Positions 2,145 through 33,861 of a stretch of DNA of 64,000 bases are shown here, one piece after another; the stretch's first letter is position 1; each line of letters begins with the position of its first letter. This DNA is from a virus. Position numbers and translations under genes: made by a program. Location of the stretch: the IMG/VR virus record IMGVR_UViG_3300002835_000017. The stretch is one strand, 5' to 3'. Below the pieces are notes generated by a model. The model had not been told where the DNA came from. It did not search any database and saw nothing but the letters and a program-made list of their open reading frames with translations.

Positions 2145-4379
2145 TTATCCGCTAAAACTTGCTCCAGTTGGTAAAATGTTGAAATCAATTTGAATGAATT
2201 CAGCAGTTTTAGTTGGTTGTAAGAAGATAGCTCCTGCTAATATGTTTCTATCAATCACATCAGGTGTGTTGTTAGTATCATCCATTACAACTCTGAATGC
2301 GTAAAGTCCTTGTCTTTGTTGGATACTATCCAAATATGGATTAACGATGTTTAAGAATCGATTTCTAGTTTCAGAAGTATTTTGTTCAAACACTAAATAT
2401 CTAGATGAAGATGCAATAAACTTTCTAACAGTCAACAACAATCTTCTTACGTTGATTCTATCCAATGCAGATGGTCTATCTTGCAATGTTTTTTGTCCGA
2501 ATACTACGATACCTTGTCCAGGGAACTGAACGATTGGGTTTACTTTGTTTTCGTATAGTTCATCCTTTTCAGATTGTGTTAATCTGTTCAACAAACTAAC
2601 TGCTCCTACTAAACCACCTCTATTCAAACCTGCTGGTGCGAACCATTCTGCTGCTACTCTATCGTTTGCTGCGAATACGCCAGGTAATAATACTGATGGT
2701 GGGATTGTGATTAGTTTGTTTGTATTAACATCAATAGTCTTAACCCAAGGATAGTAAGTTGCTACCATATTTGAATCAATTGCCGAAGCTTGAGCGGTTG
2801 CTAATGAAATTGAATCATTATACGCAGTTGTATCTAAAATGTAGAAACAATCATTTCGTTGTTCAACCATATCCAATACTGAAGTTGCTACTGATGGGTG
2901 TAATCTTCTAATAACACCAGGAGTTACTACCATATTGATATCAAACTCGTCAACATTTGATAATGCTGCGATATGTTTAGCGTATGCTACAGAACCACTA
3001 GCAGTTACCGTTGATAAATTAAATCCTTGTGAATTACCTGCCAAAATATCTGCTCCAGTCAATATTGGAGTTGCAGGGTTCATACCATCAAATCCTTCTT
3101 GGAATGCTACAACGAATTGTGCTAAAGAAGAACCTACTGATAATGTACCACCATTTGCCACATCTAATCCAAATACAGAGTTAGAACCTACACCTGCTCC
3201 TGTCGGAATTGGCTTTAAGTAAATTACGTTATCAGTATTGTTATCCAAATCTATACCACCATATTGTGCTACTGATGAAGTTAGGAATGATACAGATGGA
3301 ATCAATGCTCCAACTGCTGCTGATGCAGATACTGGCAAAGTATATGCTGCGTGTCCGAATGGTACTGCTTGTACAGGAGCGGATGTGTTTAAGTTTGCAA
3401 CTCTAACATATTTTGAGTTATTTACCCAATCACCGCTTTCAGTAATTTTACCTAATTCATCAATTGATAATTTTCTATCACCAATTACTCTACTGATATA
3501 GTTAGGAGAATTTGGGTCTAAATTTACATTAGAATAAGTTTCTAATACTACTTTCTTTTTATTTGTATCAGCAAACTCTCTCACAACTACAGTAAATGTA
3601 CCATAATCAGTACCGCTTACCGAACCTGCTGCTTTAATATTAGTGATACCAATTTTAACTTTAGTATTTGCTGCGTTTCCAGCACCAATTGTTTCGAATT
3701 GGAATAAGTTATATCTATCACCAGAGATTAATTGAGAGTTAATCATTGGTGTTAATGCTTCTTGTGCATCGAATGTAAAGAGTTGGTCACCCAATACGGT
3801 TACTGAAGAAGATGCACTGGAATTAAATGTTATAGATGAGTTTTTGAAAAATCCATACACATAAGGGTCTTTAGAACCAAATGCAGATGTTCCAAATACT
3901 GCCTCAATATCGTTTGTATCGGTTACATCCAAAGAAGCAGATACGTTTAATCCACTACCTCTTAATACGAAATCACCTGCTCCTGCATTAGAAGAAGTTA
4001 ATTGTGCGTCTGCAAAACCTCCGTTTGCACTTCCTGATGTATTGAATAGAATACCTAATGATGCTGATACTGCTCCTGAAGTTGCGGTTAACAATAATGG
4101 AGCGGTTTCGGTATATCCACCAACACCCCCAACTCTACAAATTGTAGCAGTTCCTGCTTCTCTTAAATAATTTTGTACTGCTAATGGAGTGAGGTATGTA
4201 CCATCTGCTACTCCAAATAGTCTTTCAAATTCTGCTTGTGAATTTACGATTGTAGGTACTAATGGTCCTTCTTTAAAAGGTCCAATAAATGCTGCACCAA
4301 TATCTGCTACCCCTTGTTGTAAGAATGAAAGGTCGTTTTCTTTAGTAAATACACCTGGTGATACTATTTTGTCTGCCAT
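2145..4379 (-). CDS. g18: Contractile tail sheath protein (T4 gp18-like)
   Basis: SPGVFTKEND N-terminus, YYPW, WFAPAGLNRG, FGQKTLQ, DRINVRRL, FEQN, QPTKTAEFI. Confidence 0.95.
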   Translation of the reverse strand: MADKIVSPGVFTKENDLSFLQQGVADIGAAFIGPFKEGPLVPTIVNSQAEFERLFGVADGTYLTPLAVQNYLREAGTATICRVGGVGGYTETAPLLLTATSGAVSASLGILFNTSGSANGGFADAQLTSSNAGAGDFVLRGSGLNVSASLDVTDTNDIEAVFGTSAFGSKDPYVYGFFKNSSITFNSSASSSVTVLGDQLFTFDAQEALTPMINSQLISGDRYNLFQFETIGAGNAANTKVKIGITNIKAAGSVSGTDYGTFTVVVREFADTNKKKVVLETYSNVNLDPNSPNYISRVIGDRKLSIDELGKITESGDWVNNSKYVRVANLNTSAPVQAVPFGHAAYTLPVSASAAVGALIPSVSFLTSSVAQYGGIDLDNNTDNVIYLKPIPTGAGVGSNSVFGLDVANGGTLSVGSSLAQFVVAFQEGFDGMNPATPILTGADILAGNSQGFNLSTVTASGSVAYAKHIAALSNVDEFDINMVVTPGVIRRLHPSVATSVLDMVEQRNDCFYILDTTAYNDSISLATAQASAIDSNMVATYYPWVKTIDVNTNKLITIPPSVLLPGVFAANDRVAAEWFAPAGLNRGGLVGAVSLLNRLTQSEKDELYENKVNPIVQFPGQGIVVFGQKTLQDRPSALDRINVRRLLLTVRKFIASSSRYLVFEQNTSETRNRFLNIVNPYLDSIQQRQGLYAFRVVMDDTNNTPDVIDRNILAGAIFLQPTKTAEFIQIDFNILPTGASFSG

Positions 4380-4413
4380 TTTATATGCTAATTTAAAATT
4401 TTTATTATCTTAA

Positions 4414-4422
4414 TATAAATAT
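4414..4422 (-). promoter_or_regulatory. Putative late promoter ATATTTATA (tail sheath)
   Basis: Same 9-mer ~35 nt upstream of the sheath ATG. Confidence 0.7.
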
Positions 4423-4449
4423 TAAAATTATTTTCAAAACAACAAATTA

Positions 4450-6177
4450 CTATTTGTATGTTGGAGAAAAATAATCATATACTTGTCCTACCGATGTTGC
4501 GTTTTGCAATGTGTTGTAGAATAATACAGGTCCGATTTGTCCATTCCAGAATGTTGTTCTACCACTATTACATCCAATTGTTAAGAAGTTAGTAGATGAT
4601 GGTGCCGTAAATGCTGATGCAGTAAATGTTCCTACTGAAGTTTTATCTACATAAACTGTCACCGTTCCCGATGGTTGGAATGTTGCAGAAATCATATACC
4701 ATACGTTTGATGATAATGATGTTGTTAATTGTGCACTATTTCCTAATGTACTACCATAGAATTTTACTCTATTCAAAGTAGAACTATCAGATGATTCAAT
4801 TGCTAAACCATAAAATCCAGCGTAATCAAAAATATGTCGTGATGCTACACCCAATGTTGTTGTAGGTCTAACCCATACGTGAATTGTACCAGTATTAGTA
4901 TTGAATTGAGAATACCCCCCATTGATGTTGGTAGTAGTATCTTTGTACCAAAATTGGTTTGTACCATTTCCTGCGAAATATTTATCTTTTCTTGTTGCTC
5001 CGTTATTATATGATGGGTTATCACCAGTAATACCAGCTGCGTTTGCAACACCCGCAGGTCTAACACCCGTATTATATCCACTTAAATCTAACCAATCCGT
5101 TGTAACAGTTCCGTTTGTAGATGATGCTTTGGATGGGTCTAAATATAATCTTAATCCAGCAGCTGGAATTGGTGGTTGTGTAGTAGTTCCTTTGTTATGA
5201 GATACAATACCGTTTGCTAAATAAACGTCAGCATTTTCCACATTAAGTGTTACAATTTCAACATCTTCAATTATTACCTCAATATCAGTAATTTCTATTT
5301 CATTTAAACCTGTCACTGAATCGTATGTTACTACTAAATCACCTGGTAATACATCTTCAACATTTTTGAAACGATATTTTTCAATTTCACTATCCCAAAC
5401 CCAAAGAGGGTGAGTTCCAGTTGATTTGATTAAACCATTGTTTAAATCATAATATCCACTTGCAAAGTTAAAGACAATATCTGCTACATTTACTTCTTGA
5501 TATGAGCCAGATTGATTTTCTAACATATAGAATCTCCAATCAACTTGGTCTGATTCTGAATCCTGGTCTTCATCAGGTAAACCATCTGGTACCCATGCTT
5601 TAATAGTATCACCCACCGAAAGGTCTTCTACATTTACAATAGTTCCATCCGCTTTAGTTATTTTTGTTCCAAATAATAAACAGAAATCAGGTTGGTTAAT
5701 TGTGTTGTACACATCTACCGCGTATAATGTTTTTGTAGATGTTGAATTATAGCCAGTTGCTGCTAAATTATAACCATCTTCATACTTCATAGATAATACA
5801 GAAGATGCTTCTGAATATGTTGATTGAGCGATTGATGCAGGAGTTATTGGAAATGATGGAGATGCACCTAAAGTGGGTGAACCTACTGTAAAGTTTCCAT
5901 TATTAAATGTTACTGAATAGTTTGCTGCTACGTTACCAACTTTAGTACCATGCAGTGTACCCGCAGTTCCAAATGAAAATGTTGCCGCTTCTTCTGTACT
6001 TTCTACAATGTAAGTGAAAGTTGGTAAATTTGGGGTTACAGAATCTATTGCAAATGCGGTAAATGAACTATTAGATGTTCCTCCAGATAGCCCACCAATG
6101 GAAACTGCTTGAGATGTTCGGGCTGACCCGCTAACTGCTCTATATAAATTTCCTAATGATAAATTAGTTCTTGGCAT
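4450..6177 (-). CDS. Virion-associated protein: Ser/Thr-rich N-domain + Hint (BIL-like) domain + LamG/ConA-like lectin domain
   Basis: CLLFGTKI...STGTHP...YLANGIVSHN|K Hint motifs (5194-5682); LRLYLDPS, TIHVWVRP, WYMISATF, WNGQIG LamG motifs. Confidence 0.8.
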   Translation of the reverse strand: MPRTNLSLGNLYRAVSGSARTSQAVSIGGLSGGTSNSSFTAFAIDSVTPNLPTFTYIVESTEEAATFSFGTAGTLHGTKVGNVAANYSVTFNNGNFTVGSPTLGASPSFPITPASIAQSTYSEASSVLSMKYEDGYNLAATGYNSTSTKTLYAVDVYNTINQPDFCLLFGTKITKADGTIVNVEDLSVGDTIKAWVPDGLPDEDQDSESDQVDWRFYMLENQSGSYQEVNVADIVFNFASGYYDLNNGLIKSTGTHPLWVWDSEIEKYRFKNVEDVLPGDLVVTYDSVTGLNEIEITDIEVIIEDVEIVTLNVENADVYLANGIVSHNKGTTTQPPIPAAGLRLYLDPSKASSTNGTVTTDWLDLSGYNTGVRPAGVANAAGITGDNPSYNNGATRKDKYFAGNGTNQFWYKDTTTNINGGYSQFNTNTGTIHVWVRPTTTLGVASRHIFDYAGFYGLAIESSDSSTLNRVKFYGSTLGNSAQLTTSLSSNVWYMISATFQPSGTVTVYVDKTSVGTFTASAFTAPSSTNFLTIGCNSGRTTFWNGQIGPVLFYNTLQNATSVGQVYDYFSPTYK

Positions 6178-6188: not shown

Positions 6189-7187
6189 TTATTCTCCGTT
6201 ATAAATATCTAAAAGTTTTTCTTTCCATACTTCTTTGTTTGAAAAGTGTTTTATCATCCAACTTTTAAGTTTTTGGAATTCTGTTTTACGGGTTTCGTAA
6301 CTATCCTCACAAATTATTTGGTAGGTTTTTTTAAATGTTTCCGCATTATTCGCTTTGTATTTGTAATCAAGTGGAACATGCCAATCTTCATGTAATATGG
6401 GAAGTTTACCCCAATCCACTGCCTCAAATATACCATATCCGAAGGGTTCGTGCTCAAAACAAGAATGAGAGATTCCCCAATCAAGTTCATAGAACCTTTC
6501 TTTAAATTTATAATCAAATTTGTAAACTTTGGATTTTTCGAATTTGAATCCATATTTCTTTTTATAGTATTTGTTGAATGTTTCTGAATTTGTAGAAATA
6601 AATCCACCTAACCCATTCATATATTCAACATTCTTTCTACCTTCTACTCTAGCGGCGTATCCTATCTCAATAGATTCTGAAAGCTCTTTATTTTGTTTAA
6701 ATTTATAAACATTTGGGATGTGATATAAATTTTCTGTTTTATATGGAAAATGATATAACCCTACCCAAACTTTATTTTTAATTTTATTAATTAATTCGCT
6801 TTCATATTCCCAATTACCATACCAATGTAAATATTCATCTTTTTCCATTTGTGCCAATAAAGACACTTTTGTTAAATTATGGAAAATAATTGAATCAATC
6901 TTTTCCAAATTTTGATGAATAGCTCTAGTTGGGGTATAATGACCATGAAGAATATGTATCCGTCTTGCACCTTCTAAATGTTTTATAATTTCATCTTCAG
7001 ATGTTTCCCAAATGTGGTCAATATCAATTGGAAATTCTTCATAGTTGTTAGGTCTATGTCTATGGAAAAGAAGAAGTGGCTTCACTTCTAAATGAGGAGC
7101 CACTTCTTTTATCCATTCGGTTACCCACATATCAGCACCGCTATTGAACCAAGGACCTCCAGCGGTGGTGTAGTAAACATCATACAT
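6189..7187 (-). CDS. GT-B (GT4-like) glycosyltransferase within the tail module
   Basis: SGADMW, YAARVEGRKN, HEPFGYGIFEAVDWGKLPIL (E-x7-E). Confidence 0.75.
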   Translation of the reverse strand: MYDVYYTTAGGPWFNSGADMWVTEWIKEVAPHLEVKPLLLFHRHRPNNYEEFPIDIDHIWETSEDEIIKHLEGARRIHILHGHYTPTRAIHQNLEKIDSIIFHNLTKVSLLAQMEKDEYLHWYGNWEYESELINKIKNKVWVGLYHFPYKTENLYHIPNVYKFKQNKELSESIEIGYAARVEGRKNVEYMNGLGGFISTNSETFNKYYKKKYGFKFEKSKVYKFDYKFKERFYELDWGISHSCFEHEPFGYGIFEAVDWGKLPILHEDWHVPLDYKYKANNAETFKKTYQIICEDSYETRKTEFQKLKSWMIKHFSNKEVWKEKLLDIYNGE

Positions 7188-7190: not shown

Positions 7191-9641
7191 TTATAAACCT
7201 TTATTATTTGTACAATTATTTAAATCTATTCTTAATTGCTCTATTTGTAATTGTTGTTCTTTAATACCTTCGATTAGTAATGCTACTAACTTATCGTATT
7301 TAACTGCCTTAAATCCACTCTCTCTTGTCTGAACTAATTGAGGTAATACTGCTTCAATTTCTTGTGCGATTACACCCACATCGTTTCCTTCATATCCGTG
7401 CTCAACTTTGTTTTCTTCTTTCCAATCGTATGTGTTACCACTAATCTTTCTGATTTTGTCGATTGCGTTTTCAATTGGTTTGATGTTTTCTTTGAAACGA
7501 ATATCAGAAGATGAAAATGCAACGATATCATTTGCTGCATCAATTCTACCTGCAGTTCCAGTTGCAGCCATTCCTATACCTAAAGAGTTAAATCTTACGT
7601 TATCAGATGTTGCAACTGCTTGTCCGATTGAGATAGTTACTGCTCCAGTTGCTCCACTTACCGTTACACCTGTACCTGCAACATTTGAAGTTACACCTGT
7701 GTTTGCAATTGTTACTCCAGTAGAACCATTATACGATGTTCCACTTAATCCCGTACCAATTGTTAAGGTTGCTAAATTAGAACCTAAAGCGATACCTGAA
7801 ATTGTATTATTTGTTAATCCAATTGTTGGAGTTGCACCTTCACCACTATTATTAGAAAGAGTAATGTTAGTTCCTGCTACTAATGATGCTACATAGTTAC
7901 CAGATGTTCTAGTCCCTAATGCAATATCACCCGTTGTAGATGCTACGTTAATTTGTCCAGAACCTGAAACAACCGTATTTGCATCTAATTGAGTTTTTAC
8001 ACCCGTTGCAAATCCAGTAGTTGAACCTGCGGTAATTTGTGATGAACCAGATACTAAATTTGGAATAGTAATATCAGCAGAACCATTAAATGAAGTTCCG
8101 TTTATTGTTCTTGCAGTTGCTAATGTAGTTGCGGTTGATGCGTTACCTGTTAATGCTCCCGTAAATCCAGTTGAACTAACCGAAGTTAAACCTGCTATTG
8201 TTGTTGCAGTTCCACCTAATGCAATTGCAGTTGAACCAACTGTCACTGTATTAGTAGTGATTGAAGAACCTACTACCTGTGAAGAACCACTTATAACCGT
8301 TTCTGCATTTAATCTTGTCTTAATTGTAGTATTAATAGAAGATGTAAATGTTTCTAAATTAGATGTTTCAACTTCTAATGCAGTTAATCTTGTAATTGCA
8401 CTTCCACTTGCAGTTGATAATTGGTCTAATCTACTTGTTTGTGTAGTATTAGTTGTATCATTTGAACCAGTATATGTATTTAAAGAACTCAATATACCAA
8501 TTACTTGCGAAGAACCACTTACTACACCATTTGTTGCATTTATTGCTCCATTAAACGATGTTGCAGTTGATGCTCCTATTGTTGTAAGTGAACCACTTAT
8601 TTGAACTGAACCTGTAAATGAATGTGTATCATTCCCCGCATCACCAAATCGGTTAGAACCGCTACTAAATACAACACTTGCCGTTTGATTAACAGTTGTT
8701 AAATTTATAATAGTTAAATCTGTAATACTAGTTCCACTTAATTGTGAAGAACCACTAATAGTTCCCGTTGGTAATAATGGAGTAACTTGTGCTGCTCCAC
8801 TTACTATTCCTGCTGGTATAGAACTAATACTCGCGTATGCAATTTGTGATGAACCGGAAACAACTGTATTTGAATCCAATTGAGTTTTAATCGTTGTATT
8901 AATCGAAGATGTAAATGATTCTAAATTAGCAGTTTCAATTAATAAACTTGCAGTTGTTGTGTTTAAGTTTGCTACTGAAACTGTATTTGCAGATGCAGTT
9001 AAAATCAATGAACCAGAAATAGTTGCTAATGCAGTATTTTGAGTTAATTGAGATGATGTAAATGCATTAAATGAAGATGTTTCTGCATAATTACTAGTTG
9101 AACCAACAGATGATGATTGTGCAACTGTTTGAGTTACTACACCAGTATTATCCACAAATGCAATTGATGCAGTTGTAATTTGTACATTACCAATTTGAAT
9201 ACCACCACCTGCTACTGCATTAATTGTTGTTACTACTTGATTATTTGCAGGATTAACCATTTTGATTGAACCTGTTGAGATATATAAATCTCTCCAAAAT
9301 TTAGTAGCAGAACCTAAATCAAATGCGTTTGTAGTTTGTGGAATAAGAGATGAACTCAAAGATGCTACAACATTTACAGTATCAGATGATGCATCACCAA
9401 TTGTGATAGCTCCACCTAATGTTAAATTACCTGCAATATTTGCGTTTCCGGTAATATCTAACCCTGAACCTGAAATTGCTCCGAAATTTCCAGTACTACC
9501 TGTACCAGATGAACCTAATATAATGTCTCCGTTTGGACCACCAATTAATAAAGTTCCTAATGTTGTGTTTACATACGGTTCTCCGAATGCTAACGAACCT
9601 GATTGTTGTGCGGTTGTCCCACGTCTAAATTTAAGTGCCAT
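7191..9641 (-). CDS. Tail fibre with RRG..GE N-terminal head and C-terminal intramolecular chaperone (Peptidase_S74)
   Basis: MALKFRRG...LAFGEP; ARTINGTSFNGSADI repeat; SSDIRFKENI, GVIAQEIEAVLP, AVKYDKLVALLIEGIKE. Confidence 0.85.
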   Translation of the reverse strand: MALKFRRGTTAQQSGSLAFGEPYVNTTLGTLLIGGPNGDIILGSSGTGSTGNFGAISGSGLDITGNANIAGNLTLGGAITIGDASSDTVNVVASLSSSLIPQTTNAFDLGSATKFWRDLYISTGSIKMVNPANNQVVTTINAVAGGGIQIGNVQITTASIAFVDNTGVVTQTVAQSSSVGSTSNYAETSSFNAFTSSQLTQNTALATISGSLILTASANTVSVANLNTTTASLLIETANLESFTSSINTTIKTQLDSNTVVSGSSQIAYASISSIPAGIVSGAAQVTPLLPTGTISGSSQLSGTSITDLTIINLTTVNQTASVVFSSGSNRFGDAGNDTHSFTGSVQISGSLTTIGASTATSFNGAINATNGVVSGSSQVIGILSSLNTYTGSNDTTNTTQTSRLDQLSTASGSAITRLTALEVETSNLETFTSSINTTIKTRLNAETVISGSSQVVGSSITTNTVTVGSTAIALGGTATTIAGLTSVSSTGFTGALTGNASTATTLATARTINGTSFNGSADITIPNLVSGSSQITAGSTTGFATGVKTQLDANTVVSGSGQINVASTTGDIALGTRTSGNYVASLVAGTNITLSNNSGEGATPTIGLTNNTISGIALGSNLATLTIGTGLSGTSYNGSTGVTIANTGVTSNVAGTGVTVSGATGAVTISIGQAVATSDNVRFNSLGIGMAATGTAGRIDAANDIVAFSSSDIRFKENIKPIENAIDKIRKISGNTYDWKEENKVEHGYEGNDVGVIAQEIEAVLPQLVQTRESGFKAVKYDKLVALLIEGIKEQQLQIEQLRIDLNNCTNNKGL

Positions 9642-9691
9642 CTAGTTTACCTTTTTTTTAGTACGATTAATTATGTTATGTGTATAAATAT

Positions 9692-11233
9692 TTATTTATT
9701 TTCCAAACTATTAACTCTTGCTGATAATTCTTTTATCGCTTCGATTAATAGTGGAATTATTTTTTCATATTGAACTGCTTTATATCCGTTATCTCTATTT
9801 GTTACAATTTGTGGAAGGATTTCTTCAATTTCTTGTGCTATTACTCCAACATCATTTCCTTTATGAGAATGTATTTCTTCATATCCTTCTTTCCAATTGT
9901 ATGTGTTACCACTAATTGATTCAACTTTTTCCAATGCGTTTTGGATTGGTTGGATATTTTCTTTTAATCTAATATCGGATGAGTAAAATGCAGTAATATC
10001 ACCCGTTGCTCTAATTTCACCAGCCGTTGTTGATGCGGTGGTTCCAATCCCCAATGAATTGAATTGTGGATTCGCATCTGTTTTTATACTTTGTGCCAAT
10101 GTCAATGTTACATCTGCACTTTCCAATCCAGAACCCGCAGCAGTTAAACCATTGGTAGTATTACCTGCAATAGTTTGAACATAATTACCAGATGTTCTAG
10201 TCCCTAATGCAATATCACCCGTTGTAGATGCAACATTAATTTGTGCCGAACCAGATACTACACCATCTGCATTTAATTTAGTTTTAACTCTAGCATCGGT
10301 ATAATATAAATTAGTACCTTCAGATAAGTTAGTTGTACTAAATCCACTTAATGAAATTTGAGAAGAACCAGATACTACCGTATTTGAATTTAATTGAGTT
10401 TTTACATCGGTTGCAAAGTTTGTAGTAGAACCTGCGGTTATTTGAGATGAACCAGAAATTACACCATCAGCATCCAACTTTGATTTAATAGTTGTATTAA
10501 TTGAAGATGTAAATGATTCCAAATTAGCCGTTTCAATCAATAAACTTGCAGTTGCGGAGTTTAAATTAGTTATAGATACTCCTTGTGAGTCATTTGTAGT
10601 TTTAGCTGCTGATGCTGAACTAATTAATGAACCAGTAATAGTTGCTAATGCGGTGTCGTAAGCAGTAAATCCGGTAGTTGATTGTAAAGTTACTTGTGAT
10701 GACCCACTTACTAACCCACTTCCACCTAATATTTGAGATGAACCAGAGATTACTCCGTTAGTTGCGTTTATTGTACCATTGAATGATGTTGCAGTTGATG
10801 CACCTATTGTATTAATTGAACCACTTATTTGAACTGAACCTGTAAATTCATGGTTATCATTACTAAAATCACCAAATTTATTAGAACCACTACTAAATAA
10901 AACACTTGCGGTTTGATTAACAGTTGTTAAATTTATAATAGTTAAATCTGTAATAGTAGTTCCACTTAATTGAGATGAACCAGAAACTACACCAGATGGA
11001 AGGTTTGAACTAACACTTCCTATTTGTAGTTGAGTCCAACCATTTTCATTTCCTACATTTACAGTATCGGTTAATACCCAAACTGTATTACTATCTTGCT
11101 GAAAAACTATTAACCCCTCATATACATTAGCAGATGATAAAGCGTAACGGGCAGTCTGGTCCGCTAATGTTATTCTAGCATCAACGGGTTCGTTGTTAGT
11201 TATGTTAAATCCACCAGGTAATATAATTGCCAT
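9692..11233 (-). CDS. Tail fibre with C-terminal intramolecular chaperone (Peptidase_S74)
   Basis: PVDAR..YEGLIV N-terminus; TTNLSEGTNLYYTDAR; SSDIRLKENI, GVIAQEIE, AVQYEKIIPLLIEAIKEL. Confidence 0.85.
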   Translation of the reverse strand: MAIILPGGFNITNNEPVDARITLADQTARYALSSANVYEGLIVFQQDSNTVWVLTDTVNVGNENGWTQLQIGSVSSNLPSGVVSGSSQLSGTTITDLTIINLTTVNQTASVLFSSGSNKFGDFSNDNHEFTGSVQISGSINTIGASTATSFNGTINATNGVISGSSQILGGSGLVSGSSQVTLQSTTGFTAYDTALATITGSLISSASAAKTTNDSQGVSITNLNSATASLLIETANLESFTSSINTTIKSKLDADGVISGSSQITAGSTTNFATDVKTQLNSNTVVSGSSQISLSGFSTTNLSEGTNLYYTDARVKTKLNADGVVSGSAQINVASTTGDIALGTRTSGNYVQTIAGNTTNGLTAAGSGLESADVTLTLAQSIKTDANPQFNSLGIGTTASTTAGEIRATGDITAFYSSDIRLKENIQPIQNALEKVESISGNTYNWKEGYEEIHSHKGNDVGVIAQEIEEILPQIVTNRDNGYKAVQYEKIIPLLIEAIKELSARVNSLENK

Positions 11234-11248
11234 TTCTTATTTTTTATT

Positions 11249-14200: not shown

Positions 14201-14260
14201 CTCACCATCCGTTATGGATATGTTTGTATCACCTCTTCTTATTTGAAATATAGCTGCCAT
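11249..14260 (-). CDS. Long fibre/spike protein with coiled-coil tandem repeats
   Basis: MAAIFQIRRG...DGELY head; IGDNIIELN motif; 21-aa repeats; beta-rich C-terminus. Confidence 0.75.
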   Translation of the reverse strand: MAAIFQIRRGDTNISITDGELYLHKGSGSIQFGSGSNNPITLLPLNVPSYGDINLVGNISASGDVRVGGNIYLGNASADNISALGQFNTNLVPNGAIDVGTISAPWRNVYGTSISGAIAATNGVISGSSQIAASLPQGVVSGSSQIIGILGPLNSLTGSYATTGSNNFRGNQIVTGSLNIVDGEFSILTGSGQLTSSLTFTHNITAPNDGNAILELRHNNDLYNDDIAIKLKADFAGAYIDYEEDTVPYPILSVQSFANKNVYIHQDTRLLLSSLRIDENLTVTGSVIGLSGFTGSFSGSLPIQDGRLDNLEITSASVKTSIAELNSYTSSLKTAITASGADITINGNLTVKGTTTQIDSTTLNIGDNIIELNYGGSQTLSGIYTKDATGTLSSGSLLWNSTTDKWIAGVSGSESTILLAGGDSVISSSLQLTDLNVFSQSTNTRLGLLETSTGSLNTFTSSANTRLELLETSTGSLNTFSSSTLGRLDLIETSTGSLNTFTSSANTRLNLIETSTGSLNTFTSSANGRLDLIETSTGSLNTFTSSANGRLLSLETETGSLEGRFTTLAQVTGSIHQFTASLNSYTTSTEVRLDDLEYTASISIGAGLAAEFTKLNQFTASAQISIDNLESFTSSFSESVSASIAGLASASGYINYVTNSIEQLTGIEVADFDSNVAVTFINGTLKFIFGTPAIPTSIATSLSGFLVDRFNNVNDAYIVNGTWSNQGYTLVSASLYEGSTLLTEVGSGTSLSYNATTSGSHTYRLEYTASSPLDGTLYKTSTTATGTISKSNPASPTISPTVTVQLGASSNQIEQGATGSITFTSSSANPSLGWNLVNTTTNVSTPYFVTGSATGSTSISITATANYESPIGDNIPDLTTTSTATTTYTKIRSLRYGASTAESFTAGELENIGAWDTTLGGTIGTIVKGTTTASGQSVTISWTGDKYHYIVFNSSLSNLSNITTSGFGVLGQFSVTTVGQYKVYKINTLQAGGAGSSITYTLT
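12590..12935. repeat. 63-bp tandem repeat (~5.5 copies) encoding LETSTGSLNTFTSSANxRLxL
   Basis: GC(A/G)GA(A/G)GATGTAAATGT recurs at 12621, 12684, 12747 and 12873, with a degenerate copy near 12810; period 63. Confidence 0.9.
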
Positions 14261-14290
14261 TTATTGTTATTTCTGTTTTGTATAAATATC

Positions 14291-15091: not shown

Positions 15092-15124
15092 ATATATGGT
15101 CTATAAATTTTTAAGTTGTGTAAC

Positions 15125-15155
15125 AAAAAAAAGGTACTATATGTATAGTACCTTT
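15125..15155 (-). terminator. Rho-independent terminator abutting a late-promoter motif
   Basis: AAAGGTACTAT-ACAT-ATAGTACCTTT hairpin then T-run on the minus strand. Confidence 0.7.
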
Positions 15156-15182
15156 ATAAATATATAATATTTTTATAATTGT

Positions 15183-15821: not shown

Positions 15822-15854
15822 TATATTTGATGTTTTTTGTCCATTAATAATTTT

Positions 15855-15880
15855 AAAAAACCCCCCTCATTAGGAGGGGG
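15855..15880 (-). terminator. Rho-independent terminator
   Basis: Minus strand CCCCCTCCTAATGAGGGGGGTTTTTT just after the stop of 15889..18441. Confidence 0.8.
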
Positions 15881-15888
15881 ATTATTAT

Positions 15889-19765: not shown

Positions 19766-19768
19766 AAC

Positions 19769-24021: not shown

Positions 24022-25230
24022 TTATCCTACATATATTTTAAGTGGAACTTTTCTCAACATTTCTTGCTGATGTGTTGATTCATGTGCTTTATTTTCCATC
24101 ACATTTTTCCTACTCAATTCTTCCAAATTTTCTCTTAATTGGGTTATCAACATATCCTTCTCCACTTGTGCTTCAGCTCTCAATGCTGCTCCATCCAGTG
24201 ATACTTCACCATCAGGTATCGGAACATTTGAGTATTTCTCTCTAATTGCTCCTAATAATTCTTTTGAAAGTGCTAATGTATATTTTCTAATCCATTGTTT
24301 ACCAACATCGTTTATATTTGAGTATTGAATAAAATCATACGGAATATCTGAATAATCCGAAAGTGAATCTGCTTGAACAGTTTGAGAATCATGTTCAAAT
24401 TCATCTCTACTTATGTATTCAAAATAAACTCTACTAACAGTTCCATCGGTAGGTACAGGAAATATTTCTAATTTATTATCTACTATATTAAATGTGTGAG
24501 CCGATTTACGAATATGGTCATTTAATTCAATTTGTTGCATTCTTAACACATCTTCGTAAATAGGCATCATTAAGAATTGTGCAGCAGGTGAAAAGTTTCC
24601 AAATCCTAATTCACTTATTAAATTTAAAGTACCTTGTGCTCCTACCGAATACGGGTCAAAGAATCGTGCAATAGCAGGAGTTGCTTCGTGATACACTCTA
24701 GTTACATCCACCGTTGAACTTCCTGTAAATAGTGTAGAAAACGATGCAGATGTTTCCACATCAACAGATGAACTCATTATGTTGTATTTCTGTTGTCCAG
24801 CAGTTAAATTGATATATGCTTTTTTAATTGAAGTTGAACCACCTACTCCTGCTAATGTACCATATTGTTGGGACATACGAACTGTTGTTGGTAAATATGA
24901 ACCGTCTACAAGTGTTTGTGAATAATTTGAAACCTTACCTTTTGGCTGTCCTTTTAGAATATCAAGATTATTACGAAGATTGAATTGATTTATTTGTGCA
25001 GAATATTCCGAAACGGATTCTTCAAAACAGGCCCATATTTGTTGGTTATCTAATTCAATATTTACAATAGGATACCCCAATCTCTTTGCAACCCAAACTG
25101 CCGTTTTTGGTGCATCGGTTCTAAATTCTGCATCTGAATCATATAATCCAAACGGAGTTGCTTCCGCAGATGCAGATGCCGATAAAAATGCGGATGCCGT
25201 TGAGCCAGACCAATATGTGTTTATAGACAT
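24022..25230 (-). CDS. Neck / head-tail adaptor (gp13-like)
   Basis: KRLGYPIVNIELDNQQI, WIRKYTLALSKELLG, VSLDGAAL, C-terminal PLKIYVG. Confidence 0.8.
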   Translation of the reverse strand: MSINTYWSGSTASAFLSASASAEATPFGLYDSDAEFRTDAPKTAVWVAKRLGYPIVNIELDNQQIWACFEESVSEYSAQINQFNLRNNLDILKGQPKGKVSNYSQTLVDGSYLPTTVRMSQQYGTLAGVGGSTSIKKAYINLTAGQQKYNIMSSSVDVETSASFSTLFTGSSTVDVTRVYHEATPAIARFFDPYSVGAQGTLNLISELGFGNFSPAAQFLMMPIYEDVLRMQQIELNDHIRKSAHTFNIVDNKLEIFPVPTDGTVSRVYFEYISRDEFEHDSQTVQADSLSDYSDIPYDFIQYSNINDVGKQWIRKYTLALSKELLGAIREKYSNVPIPDGEVSLDGAALRAEAQVEKDMLITQLRENLEELSRKNVMENKAHESTHQQEMLRKVPLKIYVG

Positions 25231-25324: not shown

Positions 25325-25660
25325 CTATGTTAATCTAACTTTAACCGTACCTGTAGTGTGATACAATCCACCAACTGGAACGCCAGCCGATGCTGCAGCA
25401 CCATCATTTGCAAAACTACCAGTAACATATCCAAATGAAGTATTTGCCATTTTAGTTGCAATACTACCACTCAATGAGGTAACAGAGGCATCGGTTGCCA
25501 GCCCATCACCATCCAATGTTACTTGTAAATCGGATACTAATATATATCCTAATTTACCATCTGCTTGTCTAGCTAAAATTTTGTCCGTACTTTCTACCGT
25601 ATATGTTGGTAAATCTTTTGCAGTTTCCGTTATTGAATATCTTTCTTCTGGGTATGCCAT
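25325..25660 (-). CDS. Small capsid-decoration/head-fibre-like protein
   Basis: Start MAYPEE (25660) lies after a terminator and promoter motif; C-terminal FANDGAAASAGVPVGGLYHTTGTVKVRL; follows MCP. Confidence 0.55.
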   Translation of the reverse strand: MAYPEERYSITETAKDLPTYTVESTDKILARQADGKLGYILVSDLQVTLDGDGLATDASVTSLSGSIATKMANTSFGYVTGSFANDGAAASAGVPVGGLYHTTGTVKVRLT

Positions 25661-25704
25661 TTGTTTATGTTTTTTAGTTATTAAATGATTACTCATATAA
25701 ATAT

Positions 25705-25736
25705 AAAAAAAAAGAGGGAACATCACTGCTCCCTCT
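25705..25736 (-). terminator. Rho-independent terminator after the major capsid gene
   Basis: Minus strand AGAGGGAGCAGTGATGTTCCCTCTTTTTTTTT. Confidence 0.85.
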
Positions 25737-25760: not shown

Positions 25761-27377
25761 TTAAAGAGTATCTAAACCGTCAACTAAAACTTTACCATAG
25801 AATTCTGGTCTTACAATCTTTTTAGCGTAACGAGTCATAACACCTCTACGTGGAGTAAAGTTGGTTGGGTCGTACACTAAAGGAGTCATAATCAATGGTA
25901 CATAAGGTGCGTAAACTGCTCCAGTCTCGAAGAAGTTAGAACCTTTGAAACCTAACAAGATTACGTTTTCAGTCATGTAAGGGTTTTTGTAAACATCGTA
26001 TCTGTTAGAGATTTGTCCGATGTTAGTTACACCTGCTGCGAAAGTTAACGCATCTTTACCTGGGTTAGCAGAGAATCCGTTCATAGATTCCAAAATTGTA
26101 GCTACGTTTGGAGAAACAACAACGAAGTTTGCTCCACCTCTCATAGTCAATTGGTGAATCTTGTTAGATACTTTTTGTAATTTGATACCCAAAGTTTGGA
26201 ACCAAGTGTTCTTCTGGTATGCTGAAGCTGCTGCCGCAGAAGAATCAATAGCGAATCCTGCACCATTCCACTCATATCCAACTTTTGCTGACCAATATTC
26301 AGTTGTGAATGCGTTCTGCTGCAACATCTCAAGGATTTCCAAATCAATCTCTAAAGAGATGTATTCAGATAACATTTGAGTTAATTCAGCTTCTGCATCT
26401 ACAGAGTGATATGCGTTCAAATCTTGCGCCAATTCAGGAGTCCAAATTGCTTTCAACTTACGTGTTTTAGCAACGATAGGCTCTGATTTCAATTCCAATT
26501 CAATTTCTGGAATTGCCAAATCTGTTCCTCTATCTTCGAAATCTCCACGAGAGATATCAGTAGGTTGTTTGTGGTATGCCAACGATACACCAACAGTAGC
26601 CAAGTTTGATAAACCAGTTACAGTTGCAACGAATTCAACATTTGAACCGTTTTTAGTAGTGTATTGAGGGAAAATTCCATTTACTGCTGAACCAGTTAAG
26701 AATGTTGGTTCGAACGCTCTAACACCATTGAAATCTGCGTCAGATGGTAATGGAACTATGATTTTCTTCAATGTGTTACCTGCAAATGATGCAGAAACTG
26801 AACCCGAAGTTAAATCAAAATCGATATCAGCTAAAGATGCTGAAGCGAATGTTGAAGTGATTTCTGCAGTAGCATTGTTGATTGTGTATCCAAAACGTCC
26901 TGCGCCATACAAACCACCTTCAGCTGCTTGAGTTGAACCTAATTTGTTACCAGCTGGGGATAATGAATCTTTACCAAAAGTACCACCATTACCGAATAAT
27001 GAAGAACCAGTAAAGTTTGGATTACCTGCTGGGTTAGTACCATATTTGAAATCCATGTAGAAGATAAGACCTGAAGGTAAGTTCATTGGTTGAACTGAAA
27101 CGAATTCTTTCGCTGCAATAGAACCGAAGATTCTTCTTACCAAAGGTAGAGCAACACCAGCCCACTCTTCAGAACCTGAAGAAGTACCAGTACGAGTTGC
27201 CTCATCCAATAATTGCTTTGCTTGGTTTTCTAACATTACTGCCATACCATGCTTTGTAGTTTCAGAACCTACTCCTTCAAGTAGTCCTGTTCTTTCCCAT
27301 TTGCCTTTCAAACCTCTGGTTTGCTCAAGCATCACGCTCTGTGGGTTCGCGCCGCTCATTAATTTTTTAATGTTCAT
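25761..27377 (-). CDS. g23: Major capsid protein (T4 gp23-like)
   Basis: LPLVRR, VSVQPMNLPSGLIF, AKTRKLKAIWTPELAQDLNAYHSVDAEAEL, YAPYVPL, FTPRRGVMTRYA. Confidence 0.97.
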   Translation of the reverse strand: MNIKKLMSGANPQSVMLEQTRGLKGKWERTGLLEGVGSETTKHGMAVMLENQAKQLLDEATRTGTSSGSEEWAGVALPLVRRIFGSIAAKEFVSVQPMNLPSGLIFYMDFKYGTNPAGNPNFTGSSLFGNGGTFGKDSLSPAGNKLGSTQAAEGGLYGAGRFGYTINNATAEITSTFASASLADIDFDLTSGSVSASFAGNTLKKIIVPLPSDADFNGVRAFEPTFLTGSAVNGIFPQYTTKNGSNVEFVATVTGLSNLATVGVSLAYHKQPTDISRGDFEDRGTDLAIPEIELELKSEPIVAKTRKLKAIWTPELAQDLNAYHSVDAEAELTQMLSEYISLEIDLEILEMLQQNAFTTEYWSAKVGYEWNGAGFAIDSSAAAASAYQKNTWFQTLGIKLQKVSNKIHQLTMRGGANFVVVSPNVATILESMNGFSANPGKDALTFAAGVTNIGQISNRYDVYKNPYMTENVILLGFKGSNFFETGAVYAPYVPLIMTPLVYDPTNFTPRRGVMTRYAKKIVRPEFYGKVLVDGLDTL

Positions 27378-30997: not shown

Positions 30998-30998
30998 C

Positions 30999-32047: not shown

Positions 32048-32095
32048 TACTTTTATTTTGTATTACGCCTTCTTTACTGTATAAATATATATATT

Positions 32096-33625
32096 TTATT
32101 TATCCATTGTAGATTTACCGAAAACTCTTTGTATTTGTGATTTACCAGAAGAACCTACCTTTGATTGTAATATTTTAAGTGCTTCCTTTTTCAAATCAAT
32201 AGGATGTGAATCGAACCATTCAATAGTACCTTCATTACTTTTTATTGCTCTTCGTCTCTGTCCACCATCATCAATATAATCGGTATAAAAATCATAATGT
32301 CTTAATATGAAATCTGCTAATTCTTTTCCATTTTTTGCGGGTGCGTTTTGAATTGCTTCGTTCATAGATTCATATTTAATCATATCTGGATTAAACTTTT
32401 CAAAATTCTTTCTTGCCCATTTTACGGCATCTTCATAAGAATTAAATTTAATCCTATCCTGTTTGAACCCTTTTTTCTTATTTAAAAAATCAATATAAAC
32501 TTTATCTTCATTTACTGATTCACTAACTACCTTATCGCCCCAAAACGATACTGATGGCATGTTTCCGAATGTTGTATCATATTTAGAATCAATGCCAAAT
32601 CTTGATTTTAGGATTTTAACTACCCCACTACCAAATTTTTTATCTGTTAGTTTAAGATAAACTTTATTCTTATTACCACCATCTTTAATTTGCCCACTTA
32701 CAAATTTTGAACCTATTGATTTGATAATATCATCTACTACATCTGCAACGAGGTATCCTTTCAAATCAGATTCGTTTACTGATTCTTCTACTCTATTCAT
32801 TTTCTCATCCGATACCCAATATGCCGTTGAACCACCGATTGAATTACGGAACATCTTTTCCATTTTTTCAGCGTATTTTTTAGCATCATTATATGAACTA
32901 AATACCATTGGCTTACCAGTTGTTTTAAAGGTTTTTGGGTCAAATTCTTTTTCCAAATCTTTACCCTGTCCTCTACCTCTGTTGTAGCTTACATAGTATT
33001 TACCTTCGTTTATAGATTCTTTTAAGGTTCTTTTTTTAAGAATTATTTGTTGAATTTGTGAAAATATAGATTGTATATCTTTATCTAACTGCTTTTCATC
33101 TGCACTCATTGGTGATTCTATATCAACATTAGAGTAAAGTTTTTTCTTTTTAGCAATTAGAACATCTACCTTTTTAATTAAATCGTTTTTTACCTTATCT
33201 AAATCCTTTATGATTTCAGATGGAGTTTCTTCGTTTACTACACTATATCCAGTCAAATCAGCTTGTCTCTTTCCCTTCTTTTCTTCACTATCTTTACCGC
33301 TAAATGCAAATGGAGTATTGTATCCTTCAACACCACCAGTAGTATTCATTTCATCTACTTTTAATTCGGCATCTTTATACATATCACTAACTTTAGCATT
33401 TAATTCATCTGCTAATTTCTTCTTTTGAGTAGTTAGTGTTTTTAATTTTTGTATATGTTCTTTTTCAGCGGGAGTACCTTTGGATTTTTTATATGCTTCC
33501 AAATGCTTTTCCATTGCATCAATTACTTTTGAATAATCAGTTTGAATAGCTTTAACTGAACGTAATTCAGCCAACACCATTTCTTTGATTTTATTAGATA
33601 CTATAGTATTATTTGTAATTGACAT
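32096..33625 (-). CDS. Polyprotein-like protein with repeated ES(I/V/M)NE linkers
   Basis: VLAE, KVDE, VVNE, ESINE, ESVNE (twice), ESMNE separate ~40-90-aa segments. Confidence 0.65.
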   Translation of the reverse strand: MSITNNTIVSNKIKEMVLAELRSVKAIQTDYSKVIDAMEKHLEAYKKSKGTPAEKEHIQKLKTLTTQKKKLADELNAKVSDMYKDAELKVDEMNTTGGVEGYNTPFAFSGKDSEEKKGKRQADLTGYSVVNEETPSEIIKDLDKVKNDLIKKVDVLIAKKKKLYSNVDIESPMSADEKQLDKDIQSIFSQIQQIILKKRTLKESINEGKYYVSYNRGRGQGKDLEKEFDPKTFKTTGKPMVFSSYNDAKKYAEKMEKMFRNSIGGSTAYWVSDEKMNRVEESVNESDLKGYLVADVVDDIIKSIGSKFVSGQIKDGGNKNKVYLKLTDKKFGSGVVKILKSRFGIDSKYDTTFGNMPSVSFWGDKVVSESVNEDKVYIDFLNKKKGFKQDRIKFNSYEDAVKWARKNFEKFNPDMIKYESMNEAIQNAPAKNGKELADFILRHYDFYTDYIDDGGQRRRAIKSNEGTIEWFDSHPIDLKKEALKILQSKVGSSGKSQIQRVFGKSTMDK

Positions 33626-33636
33626 TTTAAATTAGT

Positions 33637-33861
33637 TTAAGCTAATACATAAACAGAACCACCATTGGTTACTGCTATACTTTTAACGTAACACGGAAAA
33701 GGTTCTCCTGCAGTTAAATGTGCTAATGAAATAGTTGTTCCACCTTCTAACGTAATTGTTCCAGTCACACCACTTACAGGTAATACACCCCAAACTCTAT
33801 CTATTAATGAAGCCGAACCTGATGTTACTAATTTTGCGTTATATGTTCTATAATTTGACAT
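33637..33861 (-). CDS. Small beta-rich protein, possible capsid vertex/spike base
   Basis: RVWGVL..VTGTITLEGG..LTAGEPFPCYVKSI pattern; within the head block. Confidence 0.4.
   Translation of the reverse strand: MSNYRTYNAKLVTSGSASLIDRVWGVLPVSGVTGTITLEGGTTISLAHLTAGEPFPCYVKSIAVTNGGSVYVLA

What the first reader, a model, noticed from the sequence alone, without database searches (positions are those of the whole stretch)
2145..33861. [ST]-[GA]-S motif marks surface-exposed virion proteins: candidate glycosylation sequon
Seen: SGS/TGS/SAS tripeptides saturate all fibres (ISGSSQ, VSGSL, FTGS) and also occur in normally conserved structural proteins: the MCP variable central region (FTGSS, FASASL, LTSGSVSASF, LTGSA), sheath (VSASL twice, TSGSA, TASGSV), neck (WSGSTASAFLSASAS, FTGSS), 25325 (LSGS, VTGS) and 33637 (TSGSAS). 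By eye they are rare in portal, terminase, scaffold, protease and the polyproteins. The same window encodes at least five glycosyltransferase-like proteins, one inside the tail operon. Established: some phages and giant viruses glycosylate virion proteins, and one GT7 member (B4GALT7) extends glycans on Ser-Gly sites of proteoglycans. Inference: a phage-encoded, sequon-directed O-glycan coat over the virion.
Basis: partly seen in the sequence, partly recalled or inferred. Interest (0 to 1): 0.85.

Follow-up and report, generated by a model that had tools for sequence, protein, structure and literature searches.

The report
Ser/Thr-Gly/Ala-Ser tag on phage virion surface

Summary
Observation confirmed. 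[ST][GA]S occurs 145 times in the fibres (36-41 expected) and 21 times in sheath, neck, a 133-aa protein and capsid protein (5-7 expected). The 43 other proteins have 8 (12-14 expected). The motif is directional: [ST][GA]T, the mirror SGT and all permutations sit at expectation. Codons are mixed, so selection acts on the protein. T4 lacks the excess.

Interpretation partly supported. The GT7-LamG/sugar island in this window is accessory. A 92%-complete relative (G002) lacks the whole 27-kb island and the tail-operon GT, yet its orthologs carry as many motifs (158 v 153). immuto, Mel-JY01 and RM378 also lack GT7 and are enriched.

In an unbiased phyletic screen, the only core genes shared by five complete motif-rich genomes and absent from motif-poor G012 and T4 are three clustered glycosyltransferases: two GT-B and one GT2. 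The two GT-B proteins are predicted to form a heterodimer. That cluster lies in the unassembled part of this phage's contig.

Caveats: there is effectively one nested contrast, RM378 and LR756508 fit imperfectly, and no chemistry exists. This scan noted the same motif and GT pair earlier in other Far-T4 windows.

The parts
2145..4379 (-). Tail sheath, 744 aa; 7 motifs v 2.0 expected, all at residues 105-461, before the conserved Pfam sheath core (465-734)
   Evidence: Pfam PF04984/PF17482; counts
4450..6177 (-). 575-aa protein with a C-terminal LamG_3 domain; 3 motifs, not enriched; present only in genomes that carry the GT7 island (absent from G002 and immuto)
   Evidence: Pfam PF13385; synteny
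6189..7187 (-). 332-aa GT-B (GT4-like) glycosyltransferase-like protein inside the tail operon; accessory; has a paralog in the island
   Evidence: No Pfam, PHROG or NCBIfam hit; AF2 pTM 0.80; Foldseek BshA/HepE/PimA E 2e-8 to 1e-6, TM 0.6-0.7; invariant E247-x7-E255; distribution
7191..21565 (-). Tail-fibre block. Seven enriched proteins: 7191-9641, 9692-11233, 11249-14260, 14291-15091, 15183-15821, 15889-18441, 19769-21565. Also the Ser-rich 18541-19056 (3 v 1.9) and the motif-free LamG protein 19079-19765. 145 motifs v 36-41 expected; spacing peaks at 6 and at multiples of 14 residues
   Evidence: Peptidase_S74 chaperone domains in 7191-9641 and 9692-11233; counts; spacing
24022..25230 (-). 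Neck / head-tail adaptor-like protein, 402 aa; 6 motifs v 0.9 expected
   Evidence: phrog_211; immuto ortholog annotated as head completion protein; counts
25325..25726 (-). 133-aa protein between MCP and neck; 2 motifs v 0.4
25761..27377 (-). gp23-type major capsid protein, 538 aa; 6 motifs v 1.2 expected; 5 lie in the variable extra region 113-285, 1 in the disordered N-arm
   Evidence: phrog_138; T4 gp23 Z 21.8; AF2 pLDDT 77; alignments
33637..33861 (-). 74-aa ORF next to the portal block; 2 motifs v 0.3
46057..61385 (-). Window part of the 27-kb accessory sugar island: three SDR epimerase/dehydratases, an RmlC-like 3,5-epimerase, split TPP E1-like enzyme (57066-57701 with 47651-48193), three radical-SAM proteins (one a twitch-domain type), a HAD phosphatase and six proteins without family. 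Absent from G002, immuto, Mel-JY01, RM378, G012
   Evidence: families; distribution
61390..62856 (-). GT7 (Glyco_transf_7N + 7C) fused to a LamG_3 lectin-like domain, 488 aa; accessory; does not track the motif
   Evidence: Pfam; distribution
62858..64000 (-). Second GT7C-LamG_3 paralog, 27% identical to the first; runs past the window end (476 aa in the genome). A third paralog lies just beyond it

Best explanation
Phi-[ST]-[GA]-S-Phi is a recognition tag on the outward-facing virion proteins of a large clade of Far-T4 phages. Most likely it is an O-glycosylation sequon. Shown: the excess, its directionality, its location and its phyletic pattern. Inferred: the writers are a conserved phage GT set, namely a heterodimer of two GT4-type GT-B proteins (about 460 and 422 aa) plus a 208-aa GT2. 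This set lies outside the window, in the part of this phage's genome that was not assembled. It would prime Ser (or Ser/Thr) in the cytoplasm during assembly. The variable islands would then extend or diversify the glycan. Here that island is three GT7-LamG enzymes, two small GT-B paralogs and a pathway for an unusual, probably branched, deoxy-sugar. This mirrors the variable extra GTs of serine-rich-repeat adhesin loci. The window's own GTs are therefore accessory and are not the readers of the motif.
For: (1) The excess is 4-5 fold and survives local shuffles. It is directional: position 3 is Ser, not Thr, and the middle residue is G or A, never N or D. (2) It is protein-level. (3) It spans unrelated folds: capsid insertion region, sheath outer part, neck, baseplate-region proteins and fibres. 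(4) The folds do not need it. T4 has 44 v 56 expected. G012 keeps the 204-residue MCP region with 0 motifs. Across orthologs G012 has 4 where G001 has 29, and LR756508 has 12 where G001 has 32. (5) In 79 close MCPs the sites persist as a class: 123 TGS40/SGS29; 179 SAS62/TAS12/SGS2/TGS1; 195 SAS71. In 36 diverse MCP cluster representatives plus 6 close relatives, 177 v 54.5 expected, with 166 in the insertion region. (6) Enriched phages infect three host phyla (Flavobacterium, Microcystis, Rhodothermus), which argues for a phage-borne determinant. (7) Unbiased profile: of 199 G001 genes, 34 are shared by G014, G015, immuto and Mel-JY01. Only three of these are truly absent from motif-poor G012 and T4, and they are the clustered GT2, GT-B 422 and GT-B 460 genes. 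Among 50,697 phage records GT460 occurs only in immuto, Mel-JY01, LR756508 and RM378. (8) Both GT-B proteins keep E-x7-E. The nearest solved relative of GT460 is chlorovirus B736L. (9) Complex model: score 0.86 against a best control of 0.01. That mark was reached by 58 of 80 solved complexes and 2 of 110 mismatched pairs. Runs agree in at least 93% of contacts and partner pLDDT is at least 89. It supports binding but does not show it, and it may echo solved GtfA/GtfB-like pairs.
Against: There is no chemistry of any kind. The co-variation rests on few genomes and effectively one nested contrast, because G012 and LR756508 are sisters (MCP 66% identical). T4 and LR756511 are outgroups. The trees are poorly resolved. 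Two genomes fit imperfectly. RM378 is enriched (81 v 36) with GT460 and GT2 but no detectable GT422. LR756508 has an intact GT460 homolog (31% identity) yet little excess (77 v 60 in 200 kb). The trio cannot be shown in this phage: G000 and G002 both end where it would lie. In the fibres the motif sits in 6- and 14-residue repeats, so part of the count is structural inheritance. Motif columns in the MCP are only modestly more conserved than their surroundings (0.81, position 3 0.87, against 0.77), with no TCN/AGY serine codon switching. Non-virion proteins are no more depleted than T4's (0.65-0.90 v 0.79).
Confidence: 0.5

Rival explanations
1. The motif is purely structural or biophysical. 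It would be a favoured strand-turn element (hydrophobic, small polar, Gly/Ala, Ser, hydrophobic) of the beta-rich fibre repeats and decoration domains of this clade. It would be inherited and spread by domain duplication, with no modification. Its link with the GT trio would then be shared ancestry.
For: Flanks are hydrophobic (V/F/I/L at -1, L/V/I at +1). Fibre spacing peaks at 6 and at multiples of 14. In the MCP model the sites sit at a strand end, a hairpin turn, loops and a short helix of one beta-rich region. Conservation is only modestly above background. There is effectively a single independent phyletic contrast.
Against: Beta-strand alternation would not exclude Thr at position 3 while allowing it at position 1 (TGS 40 v SGT 9). 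The excess spans unrelated folds. Orthologous proteins with the same folds in G012, LR756508 and T4 do without it. The only core genes with the matching phyletic pattern are three GTs.
Confidence: 0.25
2. The tag is read by something other than the GT trio. Candidates are another modification (acylation, phosphorylation, radical-SAM chemistry), an assembly or decoration partner, or a host enzyme.
For: Directionality shows recognition but not what recognises it. RM378 and LR756508 do not fit the trio cleanly. G002 carries a radical-SAM/SPASM gene at the island position and the island has three radical-SAM genes.
Against: The unbiased profile found no non-GT core gene with the right pattern. Hosts of enriched phages span three phyla. 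The radical-SAM genes are in variable islands.
Confidence: 0.12
3. One reading: the GT7-LamG enzymes and the tail-operon GT of this window attach the glycan directly at the sequon, by analogy with B4GALT7 and Ser-Gly proteoglycan sites.
For: The GT7N/7C and LamG fusions and the GT-B are real. The island and the tail-operon genes co-occur.
Against: G002 (92% complete) lacks all of them and is at least as enriched. immuto, Mel-JY01, RM378 and G015 also lack GT7. From general knowledge, B4GALT7 acts on xylose and not on the protein.
Confidence: 0.05

Closest known systems
Virion glycosylation of mycobacteriophages (Che8 and relatives) by phage-encoded glycosyltransferases (Freeman et al. 2023, Cell Host Microbe; not held here, read only as described in PMC11256854)
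   Same: Phage-encoded GTs and a glycan coat on capsid proteins made in the host cytoplasm. It is the only established case of this kind among tailed phages that I found.
   Different: Those are siphoviruses of actinobacteria, with no relationship of capsid or GT shown here. As far as I could read, no short directional sequon spread over capsid, neck, sheath, baseplate and fibres is described there. Glycosylation is proven there and only inferred here.
GtfA/GtfB priming pair plus variable extra GTs of serine-rich-repeat adhesins in Gram-positive bacteria (PMC6973325)
   Same: A conserved two-protein GT-B unit acts in the cytoplasm on alternating-serine sequences (Ser-Ala/Val/Thr-Ser). A variable number of further GTs extends the glycan. 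Here there is a conserved GT-B pair, predicted to bind, with variable GT islands.
   Different: No DUF1975 domain was detected in either phage protein. Both phage proteins keep E-x7-E, whereas GtfB acts as a chaperone. There is no accessory Sec export. The targets are folded virion proteins with scattered tripeptides, not long repeat tracts.
Chlorovirus (PBCV-1 group) capsid glycosylation by virus-encoded GTs; B736L structure 3oy2
   Same: B736L is the nearest solved sequence relative of GT460 (E 5e-12). Chloroviruses glycosylate their capsid protein with their own cytoplasmic enzymes (PMC5408694, PMC9614988, abstracts only).
   Different: It is a eukaryotic giant virus with a double-jelly-roll capsid. 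From my own knowledge its glycans are N-linked at atypical sites, and the role of B736L is not established.
GT7 / B4GALT7 and the Ser-Gly sites of proteoglycans
   Same: The GT7N and GT7C domains are truly present in two window genes.
   Different: The GT7 genes do not co-occur with the motif. The fusion to a LamG lectin-like domain is not the animal architecture.

Membership tests
Far-T4 phages (Roux et al. 2015, PMC4360716) | gp23-type major capsid protein grouping with RM378 and aquatic virome sequences rather than with T4; T4-like structural module | tested here: met
   MCP matches phrog_138 and T4 gp23 at Z 21.8. It is 40% identical to RM378 and 34% to T4. Nearest named relatives are immuto, Mel-JY01 and LR756508 at 53-55%.
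Phage virion glycosylation (mycobacteriophage type) | Glycan covalently attached to capsid or tail proteins, shown by mass spectrometry | not testable with these tools
   Sequence only. This needs virions of a cultured relative such as immuto, Mel-JY01 or RM378.
Phage virion glycosylation (mycobacteriophage type) | Phage-encoded glycosyltransferases whose presence goes with the modification | tested here: inconclusive
   The GT trio tracks the motif in 5 of 5 complete genomes that have it and 0 of 2 complete genomes that lack it (G012, T4). RM378 and LR756508 are imperfect fits, and there is only about one independent contrast.
GtfA/GtfB two-protein O-GlcNAc transferase of SRR adhesins | Two GT-B proteins forming a complex | tested here: inconclusive
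   Complex model score 0.86 v best control 0.01; at least 93% contact agreement; partner pLDDT at least 89. This supports binding, does not show it, and could reflect likeness to solved pairs.
GtfA/GtfB two-protein O-GlcNAc transferase of SRR adhesins | DUF1975 interaction domain; accessory Sec locus | tested here: not met
   Pfam finds only Glycos_transf_1-type matches in both proteins, with no DUF1975. The neighbours are a PD-(D/E)XK nuclease, GT2, an SDR and a methyltransferase, not aSec genes.
GT7 (beta-1,4-galactosyltransferase-like) | Glyco_transf_7N and 7C domains above Pfam thresholds | tested here: met
   61390-62856: 66.9 and 65.8 bits. 62858-end: 7C at 45.5 bits.
GT7 as the writer of the motif | Presence goes with motif enrichment across relatives | tested here: not met
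   Absent from G002, immuto, Mel-JY01 and RM378, all of which are enriched.
GT4-type GT-B glycosyltransferase (332-aa tail-operon protein) | Two Rossmann-like domains; E-x7-E signature; family HMM match | tested here: inconclusive
   Fold met (Foldseek E 2e-8, TM up to 0.73). E247-x7-E255 is invariant in 27 homologs. No Pfam, PHROG or NCBIfam model reaches threshold.

The most novel reading that the evidence does not exclude
Abundant aquatic Far-T4 phages coat the whole outside of the virion (capsid, neck, sheath, baseplate, fibres) with O-glycans. Attachment is at a short directional sequon, Phi-[ST]-[GA]-S-Phi. The writer is a conserved heterodimeric GT-B pair plus a GT2. Swappable islands then diversify the glycan into serotype-like variants; here the island holds GT7-LamG enzymes and a pathway for an unusual branched sugar. 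This would be the first defined protein-glycosylation sequon of a tailed phage and a general surface code for a globally common phage group.
Probability: 0.4. Interest if true: 0.85.

Novelty: new variant of a known kind. Interest (0 to 1): 0.68.

Why it matters
If the tag is a glycosylation sequon, one could read from sequence alone which phages wear a sugar coat and where it attaches. The Far-T4 group is among the commonest phage types in lakes and oceans. A glycan shield would bear on host recognition, sticking to mucus and particles, grazing, decay, and antibody recognition, as reported for mycobacteriophages. Three cultured phages (immuto, Mel-JY01, RM378) make the idea directly testable. 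The practical correction for this window is also useful: its large GT7/sugar island is not what defines the motif, so annotating such islands as the virion glycosylation system would mislead.

Tried and rejected
**DNA-level cause:** rejected, because codons are mixed.

**Composition or local low complexity:** rejected by 10- and 20-residue local shuffles.

**General property of T4-like virions:** rejected, since T4 has 44 v 56 expected.

**Avoidance of the motif in non-virion proteins:** ratios of 0.65-0.90 equal the T4 baseline of 0.79, so the test is uninformative.

**TCN/AGY serine codon switching at conserved MCP sites:** none seen at this shallow depth.

**LamG domains of the GT7 enzymes specifically related to the virion LamG proteins:** no; the likeness is only at family level.

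**Other GTs in G002:** PF00535 gave none, and PF00534 gave only a 14-bit trace in a 346-aa ORF at the contig's first bases. Ten G002-specific proteins gave no GT family, although three have no family at all.

**More motif-poor lineages:** P0222 and P0178 have no IMG/VR relatives. P0144 and P0157 have only short contigs. The P0137 lineage is not motif-poor.

**immuto GT2 as a query against LR756508, LR756511, G012, T4 and RM378:** nothing rang, but the search also missed the RM378 GT2 that blastp had found, so it is uninformative.

**Six island proteins without family** (46057-47496, 50308-51396, 51348-52064, 53070-54500, 54475-55434, 59209-59991): no GT assignment from Pfam, PHROGs or NCBIfam.

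**Freeman et al. 2023:** could not be read because it is not held.

**DNA hypermodification as the role of the island** (raised by 10.1101/2023.12.21.572611 and PMC13326640, seen as abstracts only): neither tested nor excluded.


Full report
**What the window is.** All long ORFs lie on the minus strand and GC is about 32%. The window is part of a 145-kb IMG/VR virus record (G000, 77% complete by CheckV). The major capsid protein (MCP, 25761-27377) is gp23-like: phrog_138 and T4 gp23 at Z 21.8 on an AlphaFold model of pLDDT 77. The nearest named phages are Flavobacterium phage immuto, Microcystis phage Mel-JY01 and uncultured LR756508 (53-55% MCP identity), followed by Rhodothermus phage RM378 (40%). 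This is the "Far-T4" group of Roux et al. 2015 (PMC4360716). Other assignments:
- Sheath: 2145-4379.
- Fibres: roughly 7191-21565, two of them with S74 chaperone domains.
- Neck/adaptor: 24022-25230.
- Portal: 34785-36527.
- A sugar-nucleotide and GT island from 46057 to the window end.

- Against 1000 composition shuffles per protein, seven fibre proteins have z of 4.8-10.4. MCP has 6 v 1.2, neck 6 v 0.9 and sheath 7 v 2.0. Portal, terminase and thirty other proteins have none.
- Pooled, the fibres have 145 v 36-41 expected and the four core virion proteins 21 v 4.6-6.9. This holds whether residues are shuffled over the whole protein or within 20- or 10-residue blocks. The other 43 proteins have 8 v 12-14.
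- The motif is directional. [ST][GA]T is at expectation (26 v 31). TGS occurs 40 times but its mirror SGT only 9 times (9 expected). SNS and SDS never occur. The five other orderings of the same residue classes are near expectation.
- Serine codons mix AGT and TCN, with 63 different 9-mers among 166 hits, so the signal is in the protein.
- The context is Phi-[ST]-[GA]-S-Phi: V and F are 3-fold enriched at -1, and L is 2.7-fold enriched at +1.
- In the fibres the spacing peaks at 6 residues and at 14, 28, 42 and 56, so many copies are built into short structural repeats.
- Further enriched proteins lie outside the window in the baseplate-region block of the genome.

**Where the motifs sit.**
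- In the MCP, five of six lie in the extra, beta-rich region 113-285. This region is not part of the HK97-like core and aligns poorly with T4. From general knowledge of gp23 and gp24 it corresponds to the insertion domain on the outer capsid surface. I could not compute solvent exposure.
- By DSSP on the model, the sites are a loop (123), a strand end (179), a short helix (191, 195) and a hairpin turn (228). Site 67 is in the disordered N-arm.
- In the sheath, all seven precede the conserved core at 465-734.
- In 79 close MCP relatives (79-99% identity) every sequence has 3-8 motifs. The main sites persist as a class through S/T and G/A exchange. Identity conservation of these columns is only modestly above the surrounding region: 0.81, and 0.87 at position 3, against 0.77.
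- In a 42-sequence alignment (36 diverse MCP cluster representatives at 34-59% identity plus 6 close relatives), the total is 177 v 54.5 expected. 166 of these fall in the insertion region, at recurrent columns.

**The GTs of this window do not explain it.**
- Verified GT-like genes in the window are two GT7N/7C-LamG_3 fusions (61390-62856 and 62858-end) and a 332-aa protein in the tail operon (6189-7187).
- The 332-aa protein has no family hit. It folds confidently (pTM 0.80) as a GT4-like GT-B enzyme (Foldseek BshA, HepE, PimA) and has an invariant E-x7-E.
- A third GT7-LamG and a GT-B paralog lie just outside the window.
- Synteny shows a 27-kb island (window 46057 to genome position 50359). 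It is present in G001 (202 kb, 100% complete) and cleanly absent from G002 (176 kb, 92% complete, MCP 79% identical). G002 also lacks the tail-operon GT-B and the adjacent LamG protein.
- Yet G002 has 376 motifs v 117 expected. Across 30 orthologous structural proteins it has 158 where G001 has 153.
- immuto, Mel-JY01 and RM378 have no GT7 and are enriched about 2-fold: 178 v 86, 174 v 85 and 81 v 36.

**It is not a property of the folds.**
- T4 has 44 v 56 expected.
- G012 is a complete 263-kb relative whose MCP, portal, terminase and sheath are all closer to this phage than RM378's are. It has 115 v 104 expected.
- G012's MCP keeps the 204-residue insertion region with no motif. At site 179 it reads S-A-E where the others read S-A-S, and at site 228 E-D-D where the others read S-G-S. 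Across 15 orthologs it has 4 motifs where G001 has 29.

**What does track it.** Earlier notes of this scan said the motif follows a conserved pair of soluble GTs, so I tested that here.
- G001 has adjacent GT-B genes of 460 and 422 aa, a 208-aa GT2 and a nuclease neighbour. immuto and Mel-JY01 share the set at 39-55% identity, RM378 shares part of it, and T4 has none.
- In 50,697 phage records GT460 occurs only in immuto, Mel-JY01, LR756508 and RM378.
- Profiles of both proteins find the adjacent pair in the complete genomes G014 and G015 (ratios 1.80 and 1.89), and find nothing in G012 or T4.
- To avoid cherry-picking I screened all 199 G001 genes. Thirty-four are present in G014, G015, immuto and Mel-JY01. 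Four of these are absent from G012 and T4 by blastp, and tblastn shows one of the four is in fact present in G012. The remaining three are exactly the GT2, GT-B 422 and GT-B 460.
- Both GT-B proteins keep E-x7-E.
- GT460's nearest solved relative is chlorovirus B736L.
- A complex model scores 0.86 against a best control of 0.01. That mark was reached by 58 of 80 solved complexes and 2 of 110 mismatched pairs. Runs agree in at least 93% of contacts and partner pLDDT is at least 89. This supports binding but does not show it, and it may owe something to solved GT-B pairs.

**Limits.**
- G012 and LR756508 are sisters (MCP 66% identical), so the nested loss counts once.
- LR756508 keeps an intact, distant GT460 (31% identity, E-x7-E present) but has no GT422. 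It has little excess: 77 v 60 in 200 kb, and 12 v 32 across orthologs.
- RM378 has GT460 and GT2 but no detectable GT422, and is enriched. So the full pair fits better than GT460 alone, with RM378 the exception.
- The trees are poorly resolved.
- G000 and G002 both end exactly where the trio would lie, a region corresponding to G001 positions 3-7 kb to 60 kb. The trio therefore cannot be shown for this phage, and G002 says nothing about it.
- Non-virion proteins are not specifically depleted of the motif.
- No chemistry exists.

**Mechanism proposed.** A conserved GT-B heterodimer, with the GT2, primes serines of Phi-[ST]-[GA]-S-Phi on virion proteins in the cytoplasm. Variable islands then extend or vary the glycan. 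This is the logic of the GtfA/GtfB priming pair with variable extra GTs in serine-rich-repeat adhesins (PMC6973325). It is not membership of that family, because no DUF1975 domain is detected. The island in this window contains three SDRs, an RmlC-like epimerase, a split E1-like TPP enzyme, three radical-SAM proteins and a HAD phosphatase. That set suggests an unusual, perhaps branched, deoxy-sugar. Its target, whether virion glycan, DNA or host surface, is open.

**Novelty.** Phage-encoded virion glycosylation is known for mycobacteriophages (Freeman 2023, read only through PMC11256854). I found no paper describing this motif or these GTs in Far-T4 phages, and the Far-T4 paper does not mention glycosyl at all. 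My literature search was limited. This scan has reported the same motif, and the GT-pair link, in several other Far-T4 windows. What this window adds:
- a clean island-minus relative (G002);
- the unbiased phyletic screen;
- the predicted heterodimer;
- the imperfect cases, RM378 and LR756508.

Noticed in passing
G000 contig ends (beyond window); G002 = L085-L093: Two independent assemblies of related phages (G000 and G002) break at the same place. Both lack the region that corresponds to G001 positions 3-7 kb to 60 kb, which holds the GT trio and a second sugar cluster. Something there may defeat assembly, such as strain variability, repeats or the physical genome ends.
   Followed up: partly
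Mel-JY01 83441-84932 (L130); G015 64791-66291 (L258): The 460-aa GT-B gene is split into two ORFs at about the same point (profile position 165-195) in two distant phages. That point is roughly where I would expect the boundary between the two Rossmann-like halves. This may be a natural two-piece GT-B, as I recall for Alg13/Alg14, rather than a pseudogene. Both phages remain motif-rich.
   Followed up: partly
L379:589-3368, L380:568-3345, L250:244-2996: GT422 orthologs end in L-P-K-L-K/R-K, and some GT460 orthologs begin with a similar L-P-K-L-K/R peptide. In the complex model the last seven residues of GT460 (454-460) dock as a strand on GT422 residues 257-265.
   Followed up: no
window 47651-48193, 57066-57701, 59970-61385, 48195-49310, 55862-57064: The island holds a split pyruvate-dehydrogenase-E1-like TPP enzyme. 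Its alpha-like and pyrimidine-binding halves are 9 kb apart. It also has a twitch-domain radical-SAM protein (NF033640, 349 bits) and two further radical-SAM proteins. Together these hint at a two-carbon-branched or otherwise unusual sugar.
   Followed up: partly
G002 94172-97672 (L089:14172-17672): Where G000 and G001 have the 27-kb sugar island, G002 has a 471-aa protein with a mucin-like stretch, a 323-aa protein of no family, and a radical-SAM/SPASM protein of the peptide-maturase type.
   Followed up: partly
Mel-JY01 635-3052 (L126): One 805-aa Mel-JY01 protein has the Thr-ending variant [ST][GA]T 75 times (13 expected). It is the only strong excess of that variant seen in any genome examined.
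   Followed up: no
window 14291-15091 and 15183-15821: Two short fibre proteins share an N-terminal module of the Mtd_N / tail-fibre-head type (K-R-S...G-K-V-P-D-TGS-L-x-V-G-E), followed by the same T-TGS-I-T-L-T-x-TGS-F-G-E unit. They look like paralogous adaptors that carry different distal parts.
   Followed up: no
window 40535-46042: An 1835-aa protein lies between the portal/terminase block and the sugar island. It is only partly conserved in G001 and G002 and has no motif excess (2 v 2.0).
   Followed up: no
G001 33288-40612 (L095): Next to the GT trio, G001 has a second small sugar cluster: GT2, a methyltransferase, an SDR epimerase/dehydratase and a Glyco_trans_1_2 protein. A complete genome of this type therefore carries at least ten GT-like genes in three places.
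   Followed up: partly
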